32,211 nucleotides of DNA from Candidatus Woesearchaeota archaeon. GTDB taxonomy: Archaea; Nanobdellota; Nanobdellia; SCGC-AAA011-G17; GW2011-AR18. This document shows, one piece after another, positions 1 through 28,808 of this stretch; position 1 is the stretch's first letter; each line of letters begins with the position of its first letter. The translations under genes were made by a program, and so were the position numbers. The stretch is taken from positions 1 through 32,211 of the forward strand of contig CAYHUT010000001.1 in the NCBI GenBank assembly GCA_964359835.1, in the 5' to 3' direction. The notes beneath the pieces are model-generated. The model was not told where the DNA came from, did no database searches, and worked only from the letters and a program-made list of their open reading frames with translations.

Positions 1-161
1 GAAATCTGCTGATTTCCCAGCATACTGAATTCCACATATTTATTTGTGGTTGACATCTGTCAACCACCATTCAATAGAACACTAGAAGACCAAAGGTCTT
101 CGATGTGCCAAAGTTGCATAGCAACTTTAAGCATGGTGGAATTCATTATTTAAACATTTTT
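1..161 (+). repeat. Diverged copy (A) of a multi-hairpin structured element also found at 17792-17993 and 18457-18636. Candidate ncRNA or MITE-like element, possibly truncated by the window edge.
   Basis: Stems read directly: 26-35/136-145 (TGAATTCCAC/GTGGAATTCA), 47-55/58-66 (TGGTTGACA/TGTCAACCA), 85-91/95-101 (GAAGACC/GGTCTTC), 110-117/121-128 (AAAGTTGC/GCAACTTT). Alternative pairing 64-70/133-139 (CCACCAT/ATGGTGG). Unpaired flanks align with the B copies. Ends in a T5 run at 157-161. Confidence 0.55.
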
Positions 162-8395: not shown

Positions 8396-8432
8396 AAAAG
8401 ACTAAACTAATTAATAAACCTTACTAATAGCT

Positions 8433-8513
8433 ATAAAGACAAAGGTTGATTATAATTTGTTTGTCTTTATCTATCTATTAACCGACACATCTATGCTTTA
8501 ATAATGTCGGTTA
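8433..8513. promoter_or_regulatory. Two adjacent inverted repeats in the divergent intergenic region between mgtC and the 8577 ORF
   Basis: ATAAAGACAAA (8433-8443) / TTTGTCTTTAT (8460-8470), 11 bp with a 16-nt spacer. TAACCGACA (8479-8487) / TGTCGGTTA (8505-8513), 9 bp with a 17-nt spacer. Confidence 0.4.
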
Positions 8514-8576
8514 CTAATAAACAAAAAGTATTATATAAGAGTAACACTTATAATAATCATAAAGAGGTATAAAATC

Positions 8577-8789
8577 GTGCTAAATAATATAACGTTTTAT
8601 TTAATTTTGGGTAAACCTTTAATAATGTATCTGGGCATATTGACATTTCTTTCATTGATAACAACTGCAATAATAGGGTATTTTTTAAAAATAGGAAAAA
8701 TTAAAATTAAATATCATCTTCTCGCAGTAATAATCACAATTACATTGGCAATAATTCACGGTTTACTGGGGATATTATTATATTTTTAA
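8577..8789 (+). CDS. Hypothetical small membrane protein (2-3 TM)
   Basis: 70-aa ORF with a GTG start. Strongly hydrophobic segments. Lies 12 nt upstream of the flavoprotein gene on the same strand. Confidence 0.4.
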   Translation: MLNNITFYLILGKPLIMYLGILTFLSLITTAIIGYFLKIGKIKIKYHLLAVIITITLAIIHGLLGILLYF

Positions 8790-8801
8790 AGGCAGAACAA
8801 A

Positions 8802-9713
8802 ATGAAACATGAAATATATGATGAAAAGTGTAAAGGAAAAATCTGTTCTCTAAAAAACAAGCCAATTAAAATATTAGGAATTTCATCAGGAAAAAGAGAT
8901 ATGCATGCCTGTGCGCGTGAAGATCCTGTTAGTTTATTCTATTTGAAATTAGTTCTAGAAGAAATAAAAAAACAGGGTATAAATGTTGAATTAATAGATT
9001 TAAGATATTTAAAGATAAATCCTTGCAAGGAATGTTATAGCACCAATCCTGCACAATGCCGTTTTAATAAAAAAACAAATCAATGTGATTGTTATTCTTT
9101 TAAAGAAGATCATTTCTACAGCAAAGGTAAATTTATTAGCATGAAAGAAGCCTACGATAAATTAAATAAAGATGATTTTTTTAGGATTTATAATTCTGAA
9201 GGAGAATTTGCAGAAGGCGATGAAATGTGGAAAGTTTATAAAGCAATGTTAGAAGCCGATGGAATAATCTTTGCAACATCAACAGCATACTATTCAAGGC
9301 CAGCATTACTACAAACAATGTTTTCTCGTTTATGTGCTATTGATGGAGGGGTAGAAGAATTGTGTGGTGATGGAAAGAACCTTGGCAATTCAATTAAATA
9401 CTCAAAAAATCCAAATGCAAAATATAATCAAAGATTATATGGGAAATTCTGCGCATTCATAAATTGTAGCAAAGAAGGCGATTCAGTTACTCCTGATTTA
9501 TTAAAAGCATGCATAATGATGGGTATGAAAACCATTCCCCTGGGCATAGCTTATAGTGTAAATTGGTATGATGATCCGACAAACCGATTAGATACCCTAA
9601 AATCTAAACAAGATAAGTACACCCTATCATTAATTGAACATATGGCTAAAAAAATAGTAGAAGAAATAAAAAATTCTCCAAGAGTTTATGGGAAATACGC
9701 AAAAACAGTTTAA
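8802..9713 (+). CDS. Iron-sulfur-flavoprotein-like / NADPH-dependent FMN reductase family protein with a Cys-rich insertion
   Basis: 303 aa. Flavodoxin-like beta1 ILGISSGKRD, Isf-like Cys cluster NPCKECYSTNPAQCRF...CDC, and ADGIIFATSTAYYSRPALLQTMFSRL matching the FMN_red core. Confidence 0.55.
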   Translation: MKHEIYDEKCKGKICSLKNKPIKILGISSGKRDMHACAREDPVSLFYLKLVLEEIKKQGINVELIDLRYLKINPCKECYSTNPAQCRFNKKTNQCDCYSFKEDHFYSKGKFISMKEAYDKLNKDDFFRIYNSEGEFAEGDEMWKVYKAMLEADGIIFATSTAYYSRPALLQTMFSRLCAIDGGVEELCGDGKNLGNSIKYSKNPNAKYNQRLYGKFCAFINCSKEGDSVTPDLLKACIMMGMKTIPLGIAYSVNWYDDPTNRLDTLKSKQDKYTLSLIEHMAKKIVEEIKNSPRVYGKYAKTV

Positions 9714-10666
9714 ATCCAATCATTCTTATGAAAATAAAGATATAATGAAGTTACAGCAACAACCATAACTGCAAGAATCATAAAAAAACCATATTCCCAA
9801 ACCAATGCCGGCATAAATTTAAAGTTCATACCATAAAGACCTGCAATTAATGTGGGAACTAAAATTAAAGCGCCCCATGCACTTAATTTTTTCATAGTAA
9901 TATTAAGATTATTTGAAACATGTGACATGTAAGATTCTAAATTAGATGAAATTATCTCTCTGTATGTAGAAGACAAATCAGTTAATTCATTTAAATCAGA
10001 ATAAAGTCTTCTAAATTCAATCAAATCCTCTTTTTTCAATAAAGTTCCGAATTCGTTTTCAATTGAATAAACAACATCCCTATTGGCTAATAAAGATTTA
10101 TAAAAATAAATTAATATTTTTTTAATCTTGAAGATTTTGTTTAATACTCCCTTATCAGCATCTTTTGAAAAAATCTTAGCTTCAACATTATTAAGTTCAT
10201 CACTTATATTATCTAAATAGCTAAAATATTCTGAAAAAATCTCGTCCATGATGCGATATAAAAGATAAACTGGACCTTTCTTAAAACATTGAGTTAATTT
10301 TTCGTTAGTATAACTATTTATTTTATCAATTGAATTCAAATTTTGGCGATGAATTGTAATAAAATCATTTGTTTTTTTAGATAGTAAAGCAATCAGTGTT
10401 GATGTGGAAATCTTTTCATTTTCTAAGATGGGAACACTTATAACAACAACACTATAATCTTTAAGTTGAAAAAAAGTAGGTCTTCTATTATAATCTAAAT
10501 AATCCTTTAAATCACTAACAACTATTTGTGTTAAATTTGAAACTTTGTGCAAATCTAAATCATTGGGATTAATAATATCTAGCCACACAAAAATATTTTT
10601 TTTATTTAGATCAACAAAAGAACCTTCAACTACCTTATTGCCTAATAACCTCTTTATTTTAAACAT
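9710..10666 (-). CDS. corA: CorA-family Mg2+/Co2+ transporter
   Basis: 318 aa. YGMNF signature between two C-terminal TM helices, with a long soluble N-terminal domain. Confidence 0.9.
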   Translation of the reverse strand: MFKIKRLLGNKVVEGSFVDLNKKNIFVWLDIINPNDLDLHKVSNLTQIVVSDLKDYLDYNRRPTFFQLKDYSVVVISVPILENEKISTSTLIALLSKKTNDFITIHRQNLNSIDKINSYTNEKLTQCFKKGPVYLLYRIMDEIFSEYFSYLDNISDELNNVEAKIFSKDADKGVLNKIFKIKKILIYFYKSLLANRDVVYSIENEFGTLLKKEDLIEFRRLYSDLNELTDLSSTYREIISSNLESYMSHVSNNLNITMKKLSAWGALILVPTLIAGLYGMNFKFMPALVWEYGFFMILAVMVVAVTSLYLYFHKNDWI

Positions 10667-10710
10667 GCTATAATCTATAAATACCTATATAAAAACATTT
10701 GGATTATAAC

Positions 10711-15881: not shown

Positions 15882-17084
15882 TTATAAATTAAGACCTTCT
15901 TTTAATGTCTGTTTAATAATTGGAACAGTTGAACCGGGTATTGCCAAAGTTATCTCTCTTGTTCTACCATATCTTCCTTTTGAAACAACCTTTGCATTGA
16001 TCATCCCCATCATATCTAATTCTGCAATAATATCAGATATTCTTCTTTGTGTAAGGGGTTTCAATCCAACTTTAGCTGATAAATCTTTATAAACTTCAAA
16101 AATATCCCCAGTAAATATCTGGTTATTTCCTTTTTCAGTCAATAAAAATATTGAAAAAAGAGTCAATTGAAATTGTTTTGGTTGAGTATTAACAACATCA
16201 AAAACCTTGTCCCGTTCTATTTTATCTTCAGCTTCATCAATATCTTCCATTTCAACAAGTTTTTTGTTTTTTCTTTCAGCCAATTCACCTGCCACCCTCA
16301 TTAATTCAATGGCTCTTCTTGCATCGCCATGTTCTCTAGCAGCATAAGCTGCACATTTTTCAATAACACCGACCTGAATAACCCCTTCAGAAAAACTTTC
16401 TTTACACCTTTGTAATAAGATATCCTTTATTTGCAAGGCATCATAAGGTGGAAAAACCAATTCTTCCTCACTTAATGAACTTTTAATTCTAGGATCAACA
16501 TTATCCATAAATAATAAATCATTGGATATACCTATAATTGTCAACTCTGAATTTTTTAATTCTGAATTAATTCTTGTTAAATTATATAAAATTTCATCGC
16601 CTGCTTTTTTTACTAGCTGATCAATTTCATCTAAAATTAAAACAACTAATTTTTTTTCACTATCAATATGTCTTAAAAATATTTTATAAACCTCATCTGT
16701 TGGCAACCCCGTCGCAGGTATTTGTTCTCCCATCTCTCTATAAATTTGAGCTATCATTCTATATTCAGTATCTGCTACTCTTTTCAATTTACAATTTAAA
16801 TATACAAAAACAATGGGTAAATTTTTTTCTTTGGCTATTTTATTAATTTCATCACTAACATGTTTTGTTACTAAAGTCTTGCCAGTTCCGGTTTTACCAT
16901 ATAAAAATAAATTAGAAGGCTTTTCCATTCTTAAACATGGAGAAAGAATACTTGCAACATATTTAATTTGTTCATCTCTATGTTGAATATCCTGCGGTGT
17001 AAAATTATTTTGTAAAACTTTTTTATTAATTATTAACGGATTCTTATCTAAATAAGTATTAAAATATCCTTTCAAATCAACCAT
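15882..17084 (-). CDS. cdc6: Orc1/Cdc6 replication initiator
   Basis: 400 aa. Walker A GKTGTGKT, Walker B LILDEID, C-terminal winged-helix region. Lies directly next to the AT-rich ORB-flanked region. Confidence 0.93.
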   Translation of the reverse strand: MVDLKGYFNTYLDKNPLIINKKVLQNNFTPQDIQHRDEQIKYVASILSPCLRMEKPSNLFLYGKTGTGKTLVTKHVSDEINKIAKEKNLPIVFVYLNCKLKRVADTEYRMIAQIYREMGEQIPATGLPTDEVYKIFLRHIDSEKKLVVLILDEIDQLVKKAGDEILYNLTRINSELKNSELTIIGISNDLLFMDNVDPRIKSSLSEEELVFPPYDALQIKDILLQRCKESFSEGVIQVGVIEKCAAYAAREHGDARRAIELMRVAGELAERKNKKLVEMEDIDEAEDKIERDKVFDVVNTQPKQFQLTLFSIFLLTEKGNNQIFTGDIFEVYKDLSAKVGLKPLTQRRISDIIAELDMMGMINAKVVSKGRYGRTREITLAIPGSTVPIIKQTLKEGLNL

Positions 17085-17133
17085 TTTTTTACCTTCTTTT
17101 CCCTATTTTATTAGATATTAACAAAAAAGTTAA

Positions 17134-17160
17134 CACCCACACCTATATTTCGTGTGGAAC
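17134..17160 (-). promoter_or_regulatory. ORB-like origin recognition box 1
   Basis: Minus strand reads GTTCCACACGAAATATAGGTGTGGGTG. The TTCCA...GAAA core followed by a G-rich string is the layout of archaeal ORB elements. Confidence 0.6.
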
Positions 17161-17724
17161 TTCTTTTTAACCATTTCGCTTCTATTTCACATTTAATTAG
17201 ATAACTATATCCAAATCTTAATTTAAAAGAAATTAGATGAAAATAATTAAAATAAAAATAAAAAATTAATATATTTTAAAGATAAAACAACAAAAGAATA
17301 AAAAATAAAAATAAATTAATATTTTTAATATAGCTATTAGAAAAGATATAATTTATTAATTAATATATTATATATAATATAAATAATATAGTATATAATA
17401 TATATAATATACTATAGAAAAATTTATAATATAAAAAATTAAAAACTCAAAATTTGACAATACAAAAATTAAAAAAAAACCAAAAAGCTCAAAATTTTAA
17501 TATTTATTATATCTTTTATTTACTTTTTTAATATTTATTATTAATATAATATAAATTAAATATATAATTAATTAATATAAATTGCCACTTATTTTAAATA
17601 ATATTAAAATATCTTTAATTTATTATTAATATTTATTTTATAAAAATAAAACAACAAAAACTAAATTTAATACAAAAAAACTTCAAAACAAACCCCCTTT
17701 TTATAATATTCCATATGCAATCAA

Positions 17725-17752
17725 GGTGGGAGGGTCCACACGAACTAAAGGT
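17725..17752 (+). promoter_or_regulatory. ORB-like origin recognition box 2, inverted relative to box 1
   Basis: GGTCCACACGAACTAAAGGT (17733-17752) matches the reverse complement of 17141-17160 at 17 of 20 positions by hand alignment. A G-run GGTGGGAGGG abuts it at 17725-17734. Confidence 0.6.
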
Positions 17753-17791
17753 TCATTTTTAATATATTTTTAACAAAAACCAGTAAATTAT

Positions 17792-27314: not shown

Positions 27315-28160
27315 ATGGAACAGGAAGAAATAATAACCTTCGAAAAATTCTTAACAAACTTTACTAAGAAAAGCAATAAAAAACTAGGAGAAAGAACAAT
27401 TCACGGACTTTTAACACTTGCAAAGTTTATAGAACATTCTGAATCAACGGAAACACTTGAAGCTCTAGTCCAAAAACATAAAACCTACCTAGAAACAAGA
27501 AATTACCCAATTGCAAATTATTCTTTATGGCTTTACTTAAAATCTTTAGGATATTCTGATAAATTTGTAAAAGACATTATAAGTTTTAGAAAAAGAAACA
27601 TAACTGCTTTAAATGATGAAGAAAAACTTGCAGAATCTGTTTTATCTAAAAAAGAGCTTCTTTTCTTGGTTGATAATATCCCAAATATTAGAGACAAATT
27701 AATTGTTATGGTTCTTTATGACACAGGGGCTAGAATATCTGAAATTACAAATCTTAAGCTAAAAGATGTGGATCTTGAAACAAATGAAATTCACGTTATG
27801 GGTAAAGGCAGAAAACCAAGAACAGTTTATGTTAATAGTGGAACATCTCAATTATTAAAAGATTTAATCAAAAATCAAAATGTTTCATCACCAAATTCCT
27901 TAATATTTACAATAAAACCAATAACAGTTTGGTATAATTTGAAAAAATATGGCAGAGAATTATTATCTCGTGATTTACACCCCCATATGTTAAGGCACTC
28001 TAGATTACAACATATGGCTGATGAAGGCATTGATTCCTTTTCAATAAAATCTTATGCAGGCCATGCCGATATAGGCACAACACAGATTTATGTAAAAGCC
28101 TCAAAATATCAAGGCAAATTAGCTTTTCAAAAAGCAGGAAACATATGGAAGAAGAATTAG
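27315..28160 (+). CDS. Tyrosine recombinase / integrase (XerA-like or mobile-element integrase)
   Basis: 281 aa with the full catalytic set: R in DTGARISE, K in GKGRKPR, H-x-x-R in HPHMLRHS, H in YAGHAD, Y in TTQIYV. N-terminal SAM-like core-binding domain. Confidence 0.88.
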   Translation: MEQEEIITFEKFLTNFTKKSNKKLGERTIHGLLTLAKFIEHSESTETLEALVQKHKTYLETRNYPIANYSLWLYLKSLGYSDKFVKDIISFRKRNITALNDEEKLAESVLSKKELLFLVDNIPNIRDKLIVMVLYDTGARISEITNLKLKDVDLETNEIHVMGKGRKPRTVYVNSGTSQLLKDLIKNQNVSSPNSLIFTIKPITVWYNLKKYGRELLSRDLHPHMLRHSRLQHMADEGIDSFSIKSYAGHADIGTTQIYVKASKYQGKLAFQKAGNIWKKN

Positions 28161-28690
28161 CTGAAATTTTTATTGCAGGAGATTCAAGGTATAATTTGTT
28201 TGAATTGGAAGCTGTTAATTCATTCTTTGTTAATAAAGCATTGATTATAAAAAAAGAGGAGATAAATTTTAATCCTAAATTTAAAGAAGTAGATATACGG
28301 GGCCCTCAAAAGTTGCAAAAAGCAATTGCTCTTGAAATTTTAAAAAATAAAGGCTTGATATTTGAAGGTTTTGAAAAGAATCTTAGTTATGGGAGACCAG
28401 ATATTCTTGCAAAAGACAAAGATGGAAAATTAATAGCAGTAGAATGCGGTCCATGTAGATTATCTAAGGCAATAGACTACTTTAGAATTGAAGATTTGAC
28501 TGAACTATGGCTCGTTCACGCTTATTCTAATGAAAATCATTTATATATAATTAAAAAAGGTACAAATTTTAAAACTTTTTTAGAAAATTACAATAAGAAA
28601 ATAAAAGAACAGATCAAGAAAATTAAATCTCCAATGGATAATTTTAACAAACCTGAAGAAAATAATGAAAATCTCACGCCTAAACACTGA
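28145..28690 (+). CDS. Hypothetical protein with a PD-(D/E)xK-like nuclease motif
   Basis: 181 aa. YGRPDILAKDKDGKLIAVECGP has the PD...(D/E)x(K) spacing of restriction-endonuclease-fold proteins, but the Lys position reads G. The start overlaps the recombinase 3' end by 16 nt. Confidence 0.4.
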   Translation: MEEELAEIFIAGDSRYNLFELEAVNSFFVNKALIIKKEEINFNPKFKEVDIRGPQKLQKAIALEILKNKGLIFEGFEKNLSYGRPDILAKDKDGKLIAVECGPCRLSKAIDYFRIEDLTELWLVHAYSNENHLYIIKKGTNFKTFLENYNKKIKEQIKKIKSPMDNFNKPEENNENLTPKH

Positions 28691-28710
28691 AAAATTTCAA
28701 AGAAATTTTT
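28690..28710 (+). terminator. Hairpin plus T-run at the stop codon of the 28145-28690 gene
   Basis: AAAAATTTC-AAA-GAAATTTTT, a 9-bp stem whose 3' arm ends in T5. Confidence 0.4.
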
Positions 28711-28808
28711 GGTGTGCCGCAGATTTTATCTGTTAGCATAATTTAATCTTTGCTTAAAGGTTTTAATTCATATTAAAGACTAAATGTTTTAAGAAAAAAC
28801 TAAAAGAT

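What the first reader, a model, noticed from the sequence alone, without database searches (positions are those of the whole stretch)
1..161. Third, diverged copy at the window start keeps both hairpins through compensatory substitutions
Aligning 80-130 with 17907-17965, the unpaired flanks are conserved: cac-N-AGAA, gtg-Y-cAAAGTT and AACTTT-aa-S-cat. An upstream aaatc..ct.tgattt(t)cccag block at 2-20 also matches 17853-17874. The stems differ in pairs.
- Hairpin 1 is GAAGACC/GGTCTTC here and AGAAAATCT/AGATTTTCT in the B copies (G:C vs A:T and C:G vs T:A at matched positions).
- Hairpin 2 is AAAGTTGC/GCAACTTT here and AAAGTTTCT/AGAAACTTT in B (G:C vs T:A).
- The enclosing long-range helix is also replaced rather than lost: CCACCAT/ATGGTGG or TGAATTCCAC/GTGGAATTCA here, AATCACATC/GATGTGATT in B.
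Pairing preserved while sequence drifts is the classic signature of selection on structure. All three copies are on the plus strand. Each ends about 90-160 nt upstream of a plus-strand gene (hef, PRC-barrel, lonB) and upstream of that gene's TATA-like box, so they are not simple 5' UTRs.
Basis: partly seen in the sequence, partly recalled or inferred. Interest (0 to 1): 0.8.

Follow-up and report, generated by a model that had tools for sequence, protein, structure and literature searches.

The report
Small two-hairpin repeat in a DPANN archaeon
The start of this contig carries one copy of a roughly 55-base two-hairpin DNA repeat that occurs four times in this small archaeal genome fragment but is missing from the same spots in its closest relatives, so it behaves like a small mobile palindromic repeat and not like a conserved regulatory RNA.

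Summary
The core observation holds. Window 80-134 and the B copies (17907-17967, 18550-18610) share a two-hairpin module: CAC, hairpin 1, TGTGYC, hairpin 2, RCAT. Every stem difference between them is compensatory. A covariance model built from B alone finds A as its best non-self hit in about 1 Mb of related DNA (20.2 bits). It also finds a fourth copy, C, at 28685-28739.

The contig is a whole 32-kb contig of a Woesearchaeota-like DPANN MAG. A is absent upstream of hef in relatives with 90%, 83% and 71% Hef identity. B1 and B2 are absent from the cdc6-PRC-lonB spacers of three relatives. C is present in one relative and absent in two others whose flanks are conserved. The native gene promoters are conserved without the elements. 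Both strands fold equally well. The module sits inside the loop of a larger palindrome in all three sequence types, and C shows no target duplication.

My best reading (about 0.5) is a lineage-restricted REP/MITE-like palindromic repeat that varies by insertion or deletion. Compensatory differences between copies are already known for such DNA repeats. A structured RNA family remains possible (about 0.2). No transposase was found, and copy number in the rest of the genome is unknown.

The parts
1..20 (+). Module alpha in copy A: small hairpin GAAATC-TGCT-GATTTC followed by CCAG. It is cut by or abuts the contig start.
   Evidence: Sequence. The pattern AAATCNNNNGATTTYCC occurs only here and at 17855-17871 in the window (expected 0.26 with 1 mismatch allowed) and in none of 101 loci. 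Generic alignment is not significant.
26..35 (+). Copy A, 5' arm of the enclosing perfect 10-bp inverted repeat TGAATTCCAC (the host hairpin).
   Evidence: MFE fold; sequence.
46..67 (+). Copy A, extra hairpin GTGGTTGACA/TGTCAACCAC. It has no counterpart in B or C.
80..134 (+). Copy A of the two-hairpin module (beta). Layout: CAC-TA-[GAAGACC aaa GGTCTTC]-GA-TGTGCC-[AAAGTTGC ata GCAACTTT]-AA-GCAT.
   Evidence: The B-only covariance model R1 hits 80-134 at 20.2 bits, E 6.5e-4 in the window and E 0.021 in 1.04 Mb, where it is the only non-self hit.
136..145 (+). Copy A, 3' arm of the enclosing inverted repeat GTGGAATTCA. Sequence shared with the sister genome's hef upstream region resumes right after it, at about 147.
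17792..17995 (+). Copy B1, the whole repeated unit. It comprises a 5' module at 17792-17825, a B1-specific 49-nt segment that includes module alpha at 17854-17874, outer helix arms at 17879-17890/17981-17993, and inner arms at 17897-17905/17972-17980. It lies just right of the ORB-flanked oriC spacer.
   Evidence: Repeat families D1 and D15; fold; absent from L006, L013 and L014.
17907..17967 (+). Beta module inside B1. Layout: CAC-GA-[GAAAATCT actta AGATTTTC]-TG-TGTGTC-[AAAGTTTCT aaa AGAAACTTT]-TA-ACAT.
18457..18640 (+). Copy B2, the whole repeated unit. Domain I is the hairpin 18466-18513 (CAAGGCAC...GTGCCTTG with the inner pair CTACATTC/GAATGTAG). Domain II is identical to B1. It is inserted between the arms of a palindrome that is uninterrupted in L006 (AATTTAAT-TT-ATTAAATT).
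18550..18610 (+). Beta module inside B2, identical to the one in B1.
28685..28739 (+). Copy C of the beta module. Layout: CAC-T-[GAAAAATTTC aaa GAAATTTTTG]-G-TGTGCC-[GCAGAT ttt ATCTGT]-TA-GCAT. Its CAC TGA supplies the last codon and the stop of ORF181 (28145-28690). It lies in a spacer between convergent genes.
   Evidence: R1 (B-only) scores 27.1 bits, E 4e-6; sequence. The orthologue at L006 20598-20652 carries compensatory changes. The module is absent from L016 and L021, where the site reads CCTAAA^TAGTTTAGG.

Best explanation
Positions 80-134 are one copy of a 55-61-nt two-hairpin module with the layout CAC, hairpin 1 (base GAA../..TTC), TGTGYC, hairpin 2, RCAT. The module occurs four times on the + strand of this 32-kb contig from a Woesearchaeota-like DPANN archaeon: A, B1, B2 and C.

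I read it as a lineage-restricted palindromic DNA repeat of the REP/BIME/MITE kind. It spreads or is lost as a unit and is found nested in the loop of a pre-existing palindrome, probably a terminator hairpin at a gene's 3' end in at least two cases. Stems differ between copies but stay complementary, because the hairpin itself is what is recognised or copied when such repeats propagate. That hairpin could form in single-stranded or cruciform DNA and possibly also in any transcript. It is not a conserved regulator of hef, PRC or lonB.

Shown here:
- the shared module and its compensatory differences;
- four copies in 32 kb;
- presence/absence against relatives at all four sites;
- nesting inside larger inverted repeats;
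- no target duplication at the C site;
- equal foldability of both strands.

Inferred, not shown:
- that the indels arise by transposition-like copy-and-paste and not by some other route;
- the enzyme responsible (none is encoded in the window);
- that the host palindromes are terminators.
For: 1. Family membership. The B-only model R1 finds A (20.2 bits) and C (27.1 bits) in the window. A is the only non-self hit in 1.04 Mb. The only tandem perfect-hairpin pairs in the window are A, B1 and B2, and none of 21 such pairs in 1.14 Mb of relatives carries the junction motif. The structural alignment gives 96.6% of cells paired, 9 pairs with double changes, and Y:R covariation between TGTGYC and RCAT.
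2. Presence/absence.
   - A is missing upstream of hef in L008 (Hef 90%), L009/L010 (83%) and L011 (71%), while the hef promoter region is conserved.
   - B1 and B2 are missing in L006 (LonB 91%), L013 (71%) and L014 (70%) despite full synteny.
   - C is present in L006 and absent in L016 and L021, with the right flank conserved.
3. Recent copying. B1 and B2 are identical over 114 nt and lie 643 bp apart.
4. Nesting.
   - C sits in the loop of CCTAAA-TAG-TTTAGG as seen in L016.
   - B2 sits at the centre of AATTTAAT-TT-ATTAAATT as seen in L006.
   - The beta modules of A and B lie inside the perfect inverted repeats 26-35/136-145 and 17897-17905/17972-17980.
5. DNA-like character. The minus strands fold as well or better: -58.1 vs -54.4, -54.6 vs -49.4 and -70.2 vs -66.9 kcal/mol. 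Stems are perfect Watson-Crick with 3-5 nt loops. The hairpin-1 loop of C reads AAA in the window and TTT in L006, which is its own complement, as a spacer flip in a DNA palindrome would give.
6. No Rfam family matches.
7. Restricted range. The combined model R2 finds nothing in about 1.1 Mb from over 80 related Woesearchaeal loci.
8. Literature. A Woesearchaeal genome is reported among the archaea densest in MITEs, at 105 per Mb, or about one per 9.5 kb (PMC11602168). REP types differ at positions that keep complementarity (PMC3333891). REPs are insertion targets of IS elements (PMC1525189).
Against: - No transposase or other plausible mobilising enzyme is encoded in the window. The only recombinase is a tyrosine integrase at 27315-28160 that is conserved in relatives lacking A and B.
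- No target-site duplication or shared target sequence could be defined. The left flanks are AGAA, ATCC and TAAA.
- The beta module itself has no terminal inverted repeats.
- Only three independent sequence types are known, and the copy number in the rest of the genome is unknown.
- The B1 site is a messy replacement rather than a clean insertion.
- For C, the ORF181 tree groups L006 with L016 (76.8% identity, against 70.6% between the window and L006). The presence/absence pattern there needs either a loss or recombination, not a single gain.
- A few G.U pairs fall on the + strand (A 105.134, B outer helix, C). This mildly favours strand-specific folding.
Confidence: 0.5

Rival explanations
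1. This is a family of structured non-coding or cis-acting RNAs. The + strand would be transcribed and the two hairpins with their enclosing helix would be the functional fold, for example a small RNA or a stabilising or terminating 3'-end structure.
For: - The folds are very stable.
- Orthologous C copies carry a compensatory G:C to A:U change and a G.U to G:C change, plus a third compensated hairpin downstream.
- Y:R covariation links TGTGYC and RCAT.
- All four copies share the + orientation.
- Several G.U pairs exist only on the + strand.
- The B outer helix ends in a T5 run, and B2 and C lie just 3' of + strand genes.
Against: - The minus strands fold equally well.
- Loops are only 3-5 nt, with no conserved loop or internal-loop sequence.
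- No Rfam match was found.
- A, B1 and B2 are absent at the orthologous sites of all relatives, and C is absent in two.
- Nothing similar turns up in about 1.1 Mb of related genomes.
- B1 has no co-directional gene upstream, because it abuts oriC.
- Four copies in one orientation has a chance probability of 0.125 or more, since B1 and B2 are not independent.
- No expression data are available.
Confidence: 0.2
2. These are unrelated local hairpins, such as terminators or AT-rich palindromes, that resemble each other by chance or convergence. B1/B2 would be a simple segmental duplication, and any two hairpins laid in register look 'compensatory'.
For: - Plain A-versus-B alignment does not stand out from other genomic windows.
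- Two competing, non-collinear upstream matches show how easily such similarities arise.
- These genomes do carry hairpin-plus-T-run structures after genes.
- The structural alignment was fitted by hand.
- The C copy in L006 scores higher on the minus strand with the B-only model.
Against: - The B-only model picks A and C out of the window, and picks A alone out of 1.04 Mb.
- A, B and C share about 17 junction and terminal letters at equivalent structural positions.
- None of 21 background tandem-hairpin pairs has that junction.
- Module alpha recurs upstream of both A and B1 and nowhere else in 1.2 Mb.
Confidence: 0.1
3. These are double-stranded DNA sites bound by a protein: Orc1/Cdc6 (B1 lies next to the origin), the neighbouring tyrosine recombinase, or a transcription factor recognising palindromic half-sites such as AAAGTT...AACTTT.
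For: - B1 lies about 150 nt from the right ORB box of an oriC-like spacer.
- The 5' end of B's module (TCCCACGAGAAA) matches the ORB core TTCCACACGAAA at 9 of 12 positions, by inspection.
- The arms are perfect palindromes.
- C lies directly after the integrase-ORF181 operon.
Against: - A and C match the ORB core poorly and lie 17 kb and 11 kb from the origin.
- Half-site spacing differs between copies: 7 nt between AAAGTT and AACTTT in A against 9 nt in B. C's hairpin 2 has a different sequence altogether.
- Relatives keep oriC, the integrase operon and the gene promoters without the elements.
- Palindrome spacers of 3-5 nt do not fit tyrosine-recombinase core sites (established knowledge).
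Confidence: 0.07

Closest known systems
REP / BIME / REPIN elements of bacteria (mobilised by RAYT Y1 transposases)
   Same: - Both are short intergenic palindromes.
- Both are often found at gene 3' ends and combined in mosaics of hairpin modules.
- Copies differ at stem positions that keep complementarity (PMC3333891).
- Both vary in presence or absence between strains.
- Neither has terminal inverted repeats or target duplications.
- REPs are themselves targets for nested insertion (PMC1525189).
   Different: - There is no GTAG-type 5' tetranucleotide. The conserved letters here are CAC, TGTGYC and RCAT.
- The two hairpins are different and sit in tandem. REPINs instead pair a REP with an inverted REP.
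- The host is an archaeon.
- No RAYT gene was seen.
- Copy number is unknown: only 4 copies in 32 kb have been seen.
Prokaryotic MITEs, including those reported at high density in DPANN/Woesearchaeal genomes (PMC11602168)
   Same: - Both are small (about 120-200 bp for the composite A and B units), non-coding and intergenic.
- The composites are bounded by inverted repeats: 10 bp perfect in A and 12-13 bp in B.
- They are absent from empty sites in relatives.
- The density here is about one per 8 kb, similar to the 105 per Mb reported for a Woesearchaeal genome.
   Different: - No target-site duplication could be shown.
- The conserved 55-nt core has no terminal inverted repeats.
- No parent IS or transposase was identified.
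- The B repeat unit extends beyond its inverted repeats.
IS200/IS605-derived non-autonomous elements (PATEs) and the subterminal hairpins of that IS family
   Same: - Both rely on hairpins rather than terminal inverted repeats.
- Insertion occurs without duplication (seen at the C site).
- Copies share one orientation.
- The family is common in archaea (my own knowledge).
   Different: - There is no shared target tetranucleotide 5' of the copies: AGAA, ATCC and TAAA.
- A lies on the other side of oriC from B and C yet has the same orientation. That does not fit a lagging-strand bias.
- No tnpA or tnpB was found in the window.

Membership tests
MITE | Terminal inverted repeats | tested here: inconclusive
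   The composite units have them: A 26-35/136-145 is a perfect 10 bp, and B has 17879-17890/17981-17993. The conserved 55-nt core has none, and the B repeat unit extends about 90 nt beyond its 5' arm.
MITE | Target-site duplication flanking each copy | tested here: not met
   The C site read against L016 shows no duplication of 2 nt or more. The B1 and B2 junctions show only ambiguous T-rich repeats (TTTTTAT/TTTTTRT) that may belong to the element. The left end of A is missing.
MITE | Multiple copies plus empty sites in related genomes | tested here: met
   There are four copies in 32 kb. Empty sites were found for A, B1, B2 and C in relatives.
MITE | Ends related to an autonomous IS/transposase in the same or a related genome | not testable with these tools
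   No transposase is present in the window. The other contigs of this MAG could not be reached: the genome-contig scan found no relative and the exact-protein look-ups failed.
REP/BIME | Imperfect palindrome of 20-40 nt with a conserved 5' tetranucleotide (GTAG in E. coli) | tested here: not met
   The hairpins are 17-23 nt perfect palindromes. The conserved letters are CAC, TGTGYC and RCAT, and no GTAG is present.
REP/BIME | High copy number and association with a RAYT (TnpA_REP) gene | not testable with these tools
   Only one contig of the genome is available.
IS200/IS605-derived element (PATE-like) | Insertion 3' of a conserved target tetra- or pentanucleotide, without duplication | tested here: not met
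   The absence of duplication at C is consistent with this family. The 5' flanks, however, differ: AGAA, ATCC and TAAA.
Structured RNA family (Rfam-type) | Match to a curated covariance model | tested here: not met
   There were no gathering-threshold hits in the window. Only chance-level hits (E above 2) appeared in the two regions.
Structured RNA family (Rfam-type) | Covariation among independent homologues and conservation at orthologous sites | tested here: inconclusive
   Nine pairs show double changes, but on a hand-fitted alignment of only 4 sequences and 3 types. One compensatory pair is seen between the C orthologues. The copies are not conserved at orthologous sites.
Structured RNA family (Rfam-type) | Strand-specific transcription | not testable with these tools
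   No expression data are available. The folding energies give no strand preference.
Archaeal origin recognition box (ORB / mini-ORB) | Match to the genome's own ORB consensus, and location at oriC | tested here: not met
   The ORB boxes at about 17128-17160 and 17725-17755 are conserved in L006. Only B resembles the core (9 of 12 positions, by eye). A and C do not, and they lie far from oriC.

The most novel reading that the evidence does not exclude
The 55-nt two-hairpin module is a new kind of minimal mobile unit in DPANN archaea. It has no terminal inverted repeats and makes no target duplication. It specifically enters the loops of pre-existing hairpins such as terminators and other palindromes, building nested palindromes. 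It would move as single-stranded DNA through an HUH/Y1-type or other unidentified enzyme, or as a mobile structured RNA module.
Probability: 0.15. Interest if true: 0.65.

Novelty: new variant of a known kind. Interest (0 to 1): 0.4.

Why it matters
If this reading is right, the region is not a hidden riboswitch-like regulator of DNA-repair and protease genes. It is an example of how small palindromic repeats colonise the short spacers of a streamlined DPANN genome.

Three points are useful beyond this case:
- Compensatory stem differences between paralogous palindromes do not on their own show RNA-level selection.
- The repeats mark recent insertion/deletion events around the replication origin and could serve as strain markers.
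- If the apparent preference for hairpin loops holds up, it would point to a targeting mechanism that spares genes in very compact archaeal genomes.

The family is so far seen in one lineage only, so the wider significance is modest.

Tried and rejected
- Rfam gave nothing, both at gathering thresholds and with permissive E-values on both regions. There are no tRNA or tmRNA genes.
- A genome-contig scan with the shared A/B motif returned five hits. Four are in unrelated bacteria and look like chance. The fifth, in a Nanoarchaeota contig (L004), has only hairpin 2 and scores 26 bits with R2. I did not count it, because the locus was chosen by the pattern itself.
- Viral-contig scans returned one coding-region chance hit and nothing else.
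- A metagenome scan with a B-specific pattern found nothing.
- Exact-protein look-ups for the window's own Hef and LonB failed. The contig could not be extended, and it is in any case the complete record.
- Generic alignment of the upstream regions gave two mutually exclusive, non-collinear matches and was dropped as evidence.
- I considered and rejected several identities on sequence or layout, by inspection plus the Rfam results:
  - hammerhead or other small ribozymes (three-way junction, but no CUGANGA/GAAA core);
  - H/ACA and C/D sRNAs (no boxes or K-turn);
  - BHB introns (no bulge-helix-bulge at the boundaries);
  - integron attC (a single imperfect hairpin with a GTTRRRY core);
  - DGR TR/VR (no RT, non-coding);
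  - dif/Xer sites (spacer too short);
  - ORB (only B resembles it).
- The idea that the L006 sequence at the B1 site is partly homologous to B1 was not robust.

Full report
**Context.** The window is a complete 32211-bp NCBI contig. Its LonB and Hef proteins are each recorded once, on a contig of exactly this length. The nearest named relatives are Woesearchaeota/Nanoarchaeota (DPANN) MAGs. G+C content is about 30%.

The gene order is hef (253-2451), then PolD DP2 and DP1, then cdc6/orc1 (15882-17084, minus strand), then a 1-kb spacer with 15-21% G+C, then a PRC-barrel gene (18143-18412), then lonB (18732-20603). The spacer has the anatomy of an archaeal oriC. Two inverted ORB-like boxes lie at about 17128-17160 and 17725-17755 and flank the AT-rich stretch. 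Both boxes are conserved in a relative.

**The observation.** The folds are much more stable than dinucleotide shuffles: A -54.4 kcal/mol (z -7.7), B1 -49.4 (z -5.7), B2 -66.9 (z -9.7). B1 and B2 are identical over 114 nt of the core, so they count as one observation.

**Is A related to B beyond chance?**
- Plain local alignment is weak. It gives 33 of 44 identities, score 27 against 18 +/- 2.5 for shuffles (6 of 1000 reach it). Several unrelated windows of the same contig score as high.
- A covariance model built from B alone (R1) and run without filters over the window ranks A 80-134 at 20.2 bits (E about 6.5e-4). That is above every background hit.
- In 1.04 Mb of window plus 84 related loci, A is the only non-self hit reported. 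With the default filters used for that search, C was not reported.
- The same unfiltered search revealed a fourth copy, C, at 28669-28766 (27.1 bits, E about 4e-6).
- A simple scan shows that A, B1 and B2 are the only tandem pairs of perfect hairpins of 7 bp or more in the window. The 21 such pairs in 1.14 Mb of relatives never carry the junction motif.
- I therefore accept that A, B and C share a real module.

**The module.** All types fit one layout: CAC, 1-2 nt, hairpin 1 (base GAA../..TTC), 1-2 nt, TGTGYC, hairpin 2, 2 nt, RCAT. The length is 55-61 nt.
- CAC can pair with the GUG that overlaps the junction.
- UGY can pair with RCA, and the Y and R covary: C:G in A and C, U:A in B.
- On a hand-made structural alignment (A6), 96.6% of cells pair and 9 of 25 pairs show double changes. 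No shuffle or slid control comes close.
- Two caveats apply. The alignment was fitted to the structure, and any hairpins laid in register look compensatory. The informative parts are therefore the conserved junction letters, the Y:R pair and the orthologue comparison below.

**The upstream block.** Positions 2-20 against 17854-17874 are not significant by generic alignment, and a competing non-collinear match scores higher. The block is nevertheless itself a hairpin, RAAATC-N4-GATTTY-CC. That exact pattern occurs only at these two places in the window and nowhere in 101 loci. I treat it as a suggestive second shared module. B2 lacks it. B1 carries it in a 49-nt segment that replaces the 3' arm of the B2 domain I hairpin. 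The copies are therefore mosaics of hairpin modules.

**Comparative evidence.** This is what decides the interpretation.
- A syntenic 50-kb contig from a sister population (L006/L008; LonB 91%, Hef 90%) lacks B1 and B2. Its cdc6-PRC spacer is about 250 nt shorter and its PRC-lonB spacer is 139 nt against 319 nt. The ORB boxes and the PRC and lonB promoter regions are conserved.
- Two further relatives (L013 and L014, LonB 71% and 70%) keep the synteny and also have spacers too short to hold B.
- Upstream of hef, L008, L009/L010 (83%) and L011 (71%) have no A. Homology with the window resumes right after A's 3' arm, at about position 147.
- C is conserved in L006 at 20598-20652. It shows a G:C to A:U compensatory change and a G.U to G:C change in hairpin 2. 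The hairpin-1 loop reads AAA in one genome and TTT in the other.
- C is absent in L016 and L021, although the right flank (...TTTAGGTNTTGCTTAAA...) is conserved.
- In L016 the site reads CCTAAA^TAGTTTAGG, a 6-bp hairpin with the stop codon in its loop. In the window and L006, 54 nt sit exactly at ^ with no duplication. The module's CAC TGA supplies a new last codon and stop.
- The ORF181 tree groups L006 with L016. The C pattern therefore needs a loss or recombination, not one clean gain.
- The B2 site in L006 is the centre of the palindrome AATTTAAT-TT-ATTAAATT.
- Within A and B, the module itself lies inside perfect inverted repeats. In all three sequence types the module is nested in the loop of a larger palindrome.

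**DNA or RNA?**
- The reverse strands fold as well or better.
- Stems are almost all perfect Watson-Crick pairs with 3-5 nt loops.
- No Rfam family matches.
- A few G.U pairs occur only on the + strand, and one C.A occurs where the minus strand would have G.U. This is too little to decide.
- All four copies face the same way. With B1 and B2 not independent, that is not significant.

**Range.** The combined model R2 finds only the four window copies and the L006 C copy in 130 kb of close relatives. It finds nothing in about 1 Mb from 84 related loci, 80 of them Woesearchaeal loci from JGI metagenomes (best hit 15.8 bits, E 3.3). Pattern scans of GTDB genomes, IMG/VR and JGI metagenomes gave only chance-like hits or nothing. 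The family is therefore lineage-restricted.

**Interpretation.** The best-supported reading is a REP/BIME/MITE-like family of palindromic DNA repeats that are gained and lost as units and nest in other palindromes.
- The literature held here reports a Woesearchaeal genome among the archaea densest in MITEs, at 105 per Mb. That compares with four copies in 32 kb here (PMC11602168).
- It also reports that REP types differ at positions that keep complementarity (PMC3333891), and that REPs are insertion targets (PMC1525189).
- Strict membership fails or cannot be tested. No target duplication was found, the core has no terminal inverted repeats, there is no GTAG, and no transposase is encoded in the window.
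- I therefore call it a new variant of a known kind rather than a member of a named family.
- The structured-RNA reading stays alive at about 0.2, mainly because of the compensated C orthologues. Chance resemblance of terminator hairpins and protein-binding sites are less likely.

**What remains unknown.** The open points are the copy number elsewhere in the genome, the left end of A (which is cut by or abuts the contig end, possibly because the assembly broke at a repeat), the mobilising enzyme, and any transcription.

Noticed in passing
window 17085-18142 (boxes at about 17128-17160 and 17725-17755): There is an oriC-like spacer next to cdc6/orc1 and the PolD genes. Two inverted ORB-like boxes (CCCACACCTATATTTCGTGTGGAAC and GGGTCCACACGAACTAAAGGT) flank a roughly 540-bp stretch of 15-21% G+C. 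Both boxes are conserved in L006.
   Followed up: partly
L006 19676-20575 versus window 28625-28690: The sister genome (and L016) carries a second tyrosine-integrase gene flanked by a 16-bp direct repeat, AAATCYCCAATGGATA, inside the 3' end of the ORF181 homologue. The window has the uninterrupted form. This looks like a minimal integrase-only element, integrated in one genome and absent or excised in the other.
   Followed up: partly
window 24750-24835: There is a cluster of G+C-rich palindromic repeats (GACACGTCTACGACGTGTC, TAGACGTCTACGACACGT and similar) about 70-150 nt upstream of a winged-helix (DUF6293-like) gene at 24900-25577. It looks like an operator array.
   Followed up: no
window 24167-24542: Three diverged direct repeats of about 55 nt (AACTCTCACTTT...), 64-71% identical, lie in a 730-nt non-coding spacer. 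Their nature is unknown.
   Followed up: no
window 8396-10710: A CorA-like Mg2+ transporter gene and an FMN-reductase-like gene sit between MgtC and PolD DP2. They are absent at this position in L006, L013 and L014, so this is a lineage-specific insertion of about 2.3 kb.
   Followed up: partly
window 28740-28800 and L006 20653-20715: Downstream of copy C there is a further conserved hairpin (TTTTAAYTCATRTTAAAG) with a compensatory U:A to C:G change between the two genomes. It is also present in L016, which lacks the C module.
   Followed up: partly
window 1: The contig begins exactly at the first base of the small alpha hairpin of copy A. This fits an assembly break at a repeated sequence, which would mean more copies exist elsewhere in the genome.
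   Followed up: no
L008 8406-8768: The sister genome has a cysteine-rich 120-aa gene on the minus strand inserted between the conserved 94-aa winged-helix gene and hef. The region upstream of hef is therefore a variable hot spot in this lineage.
   Followed up: no
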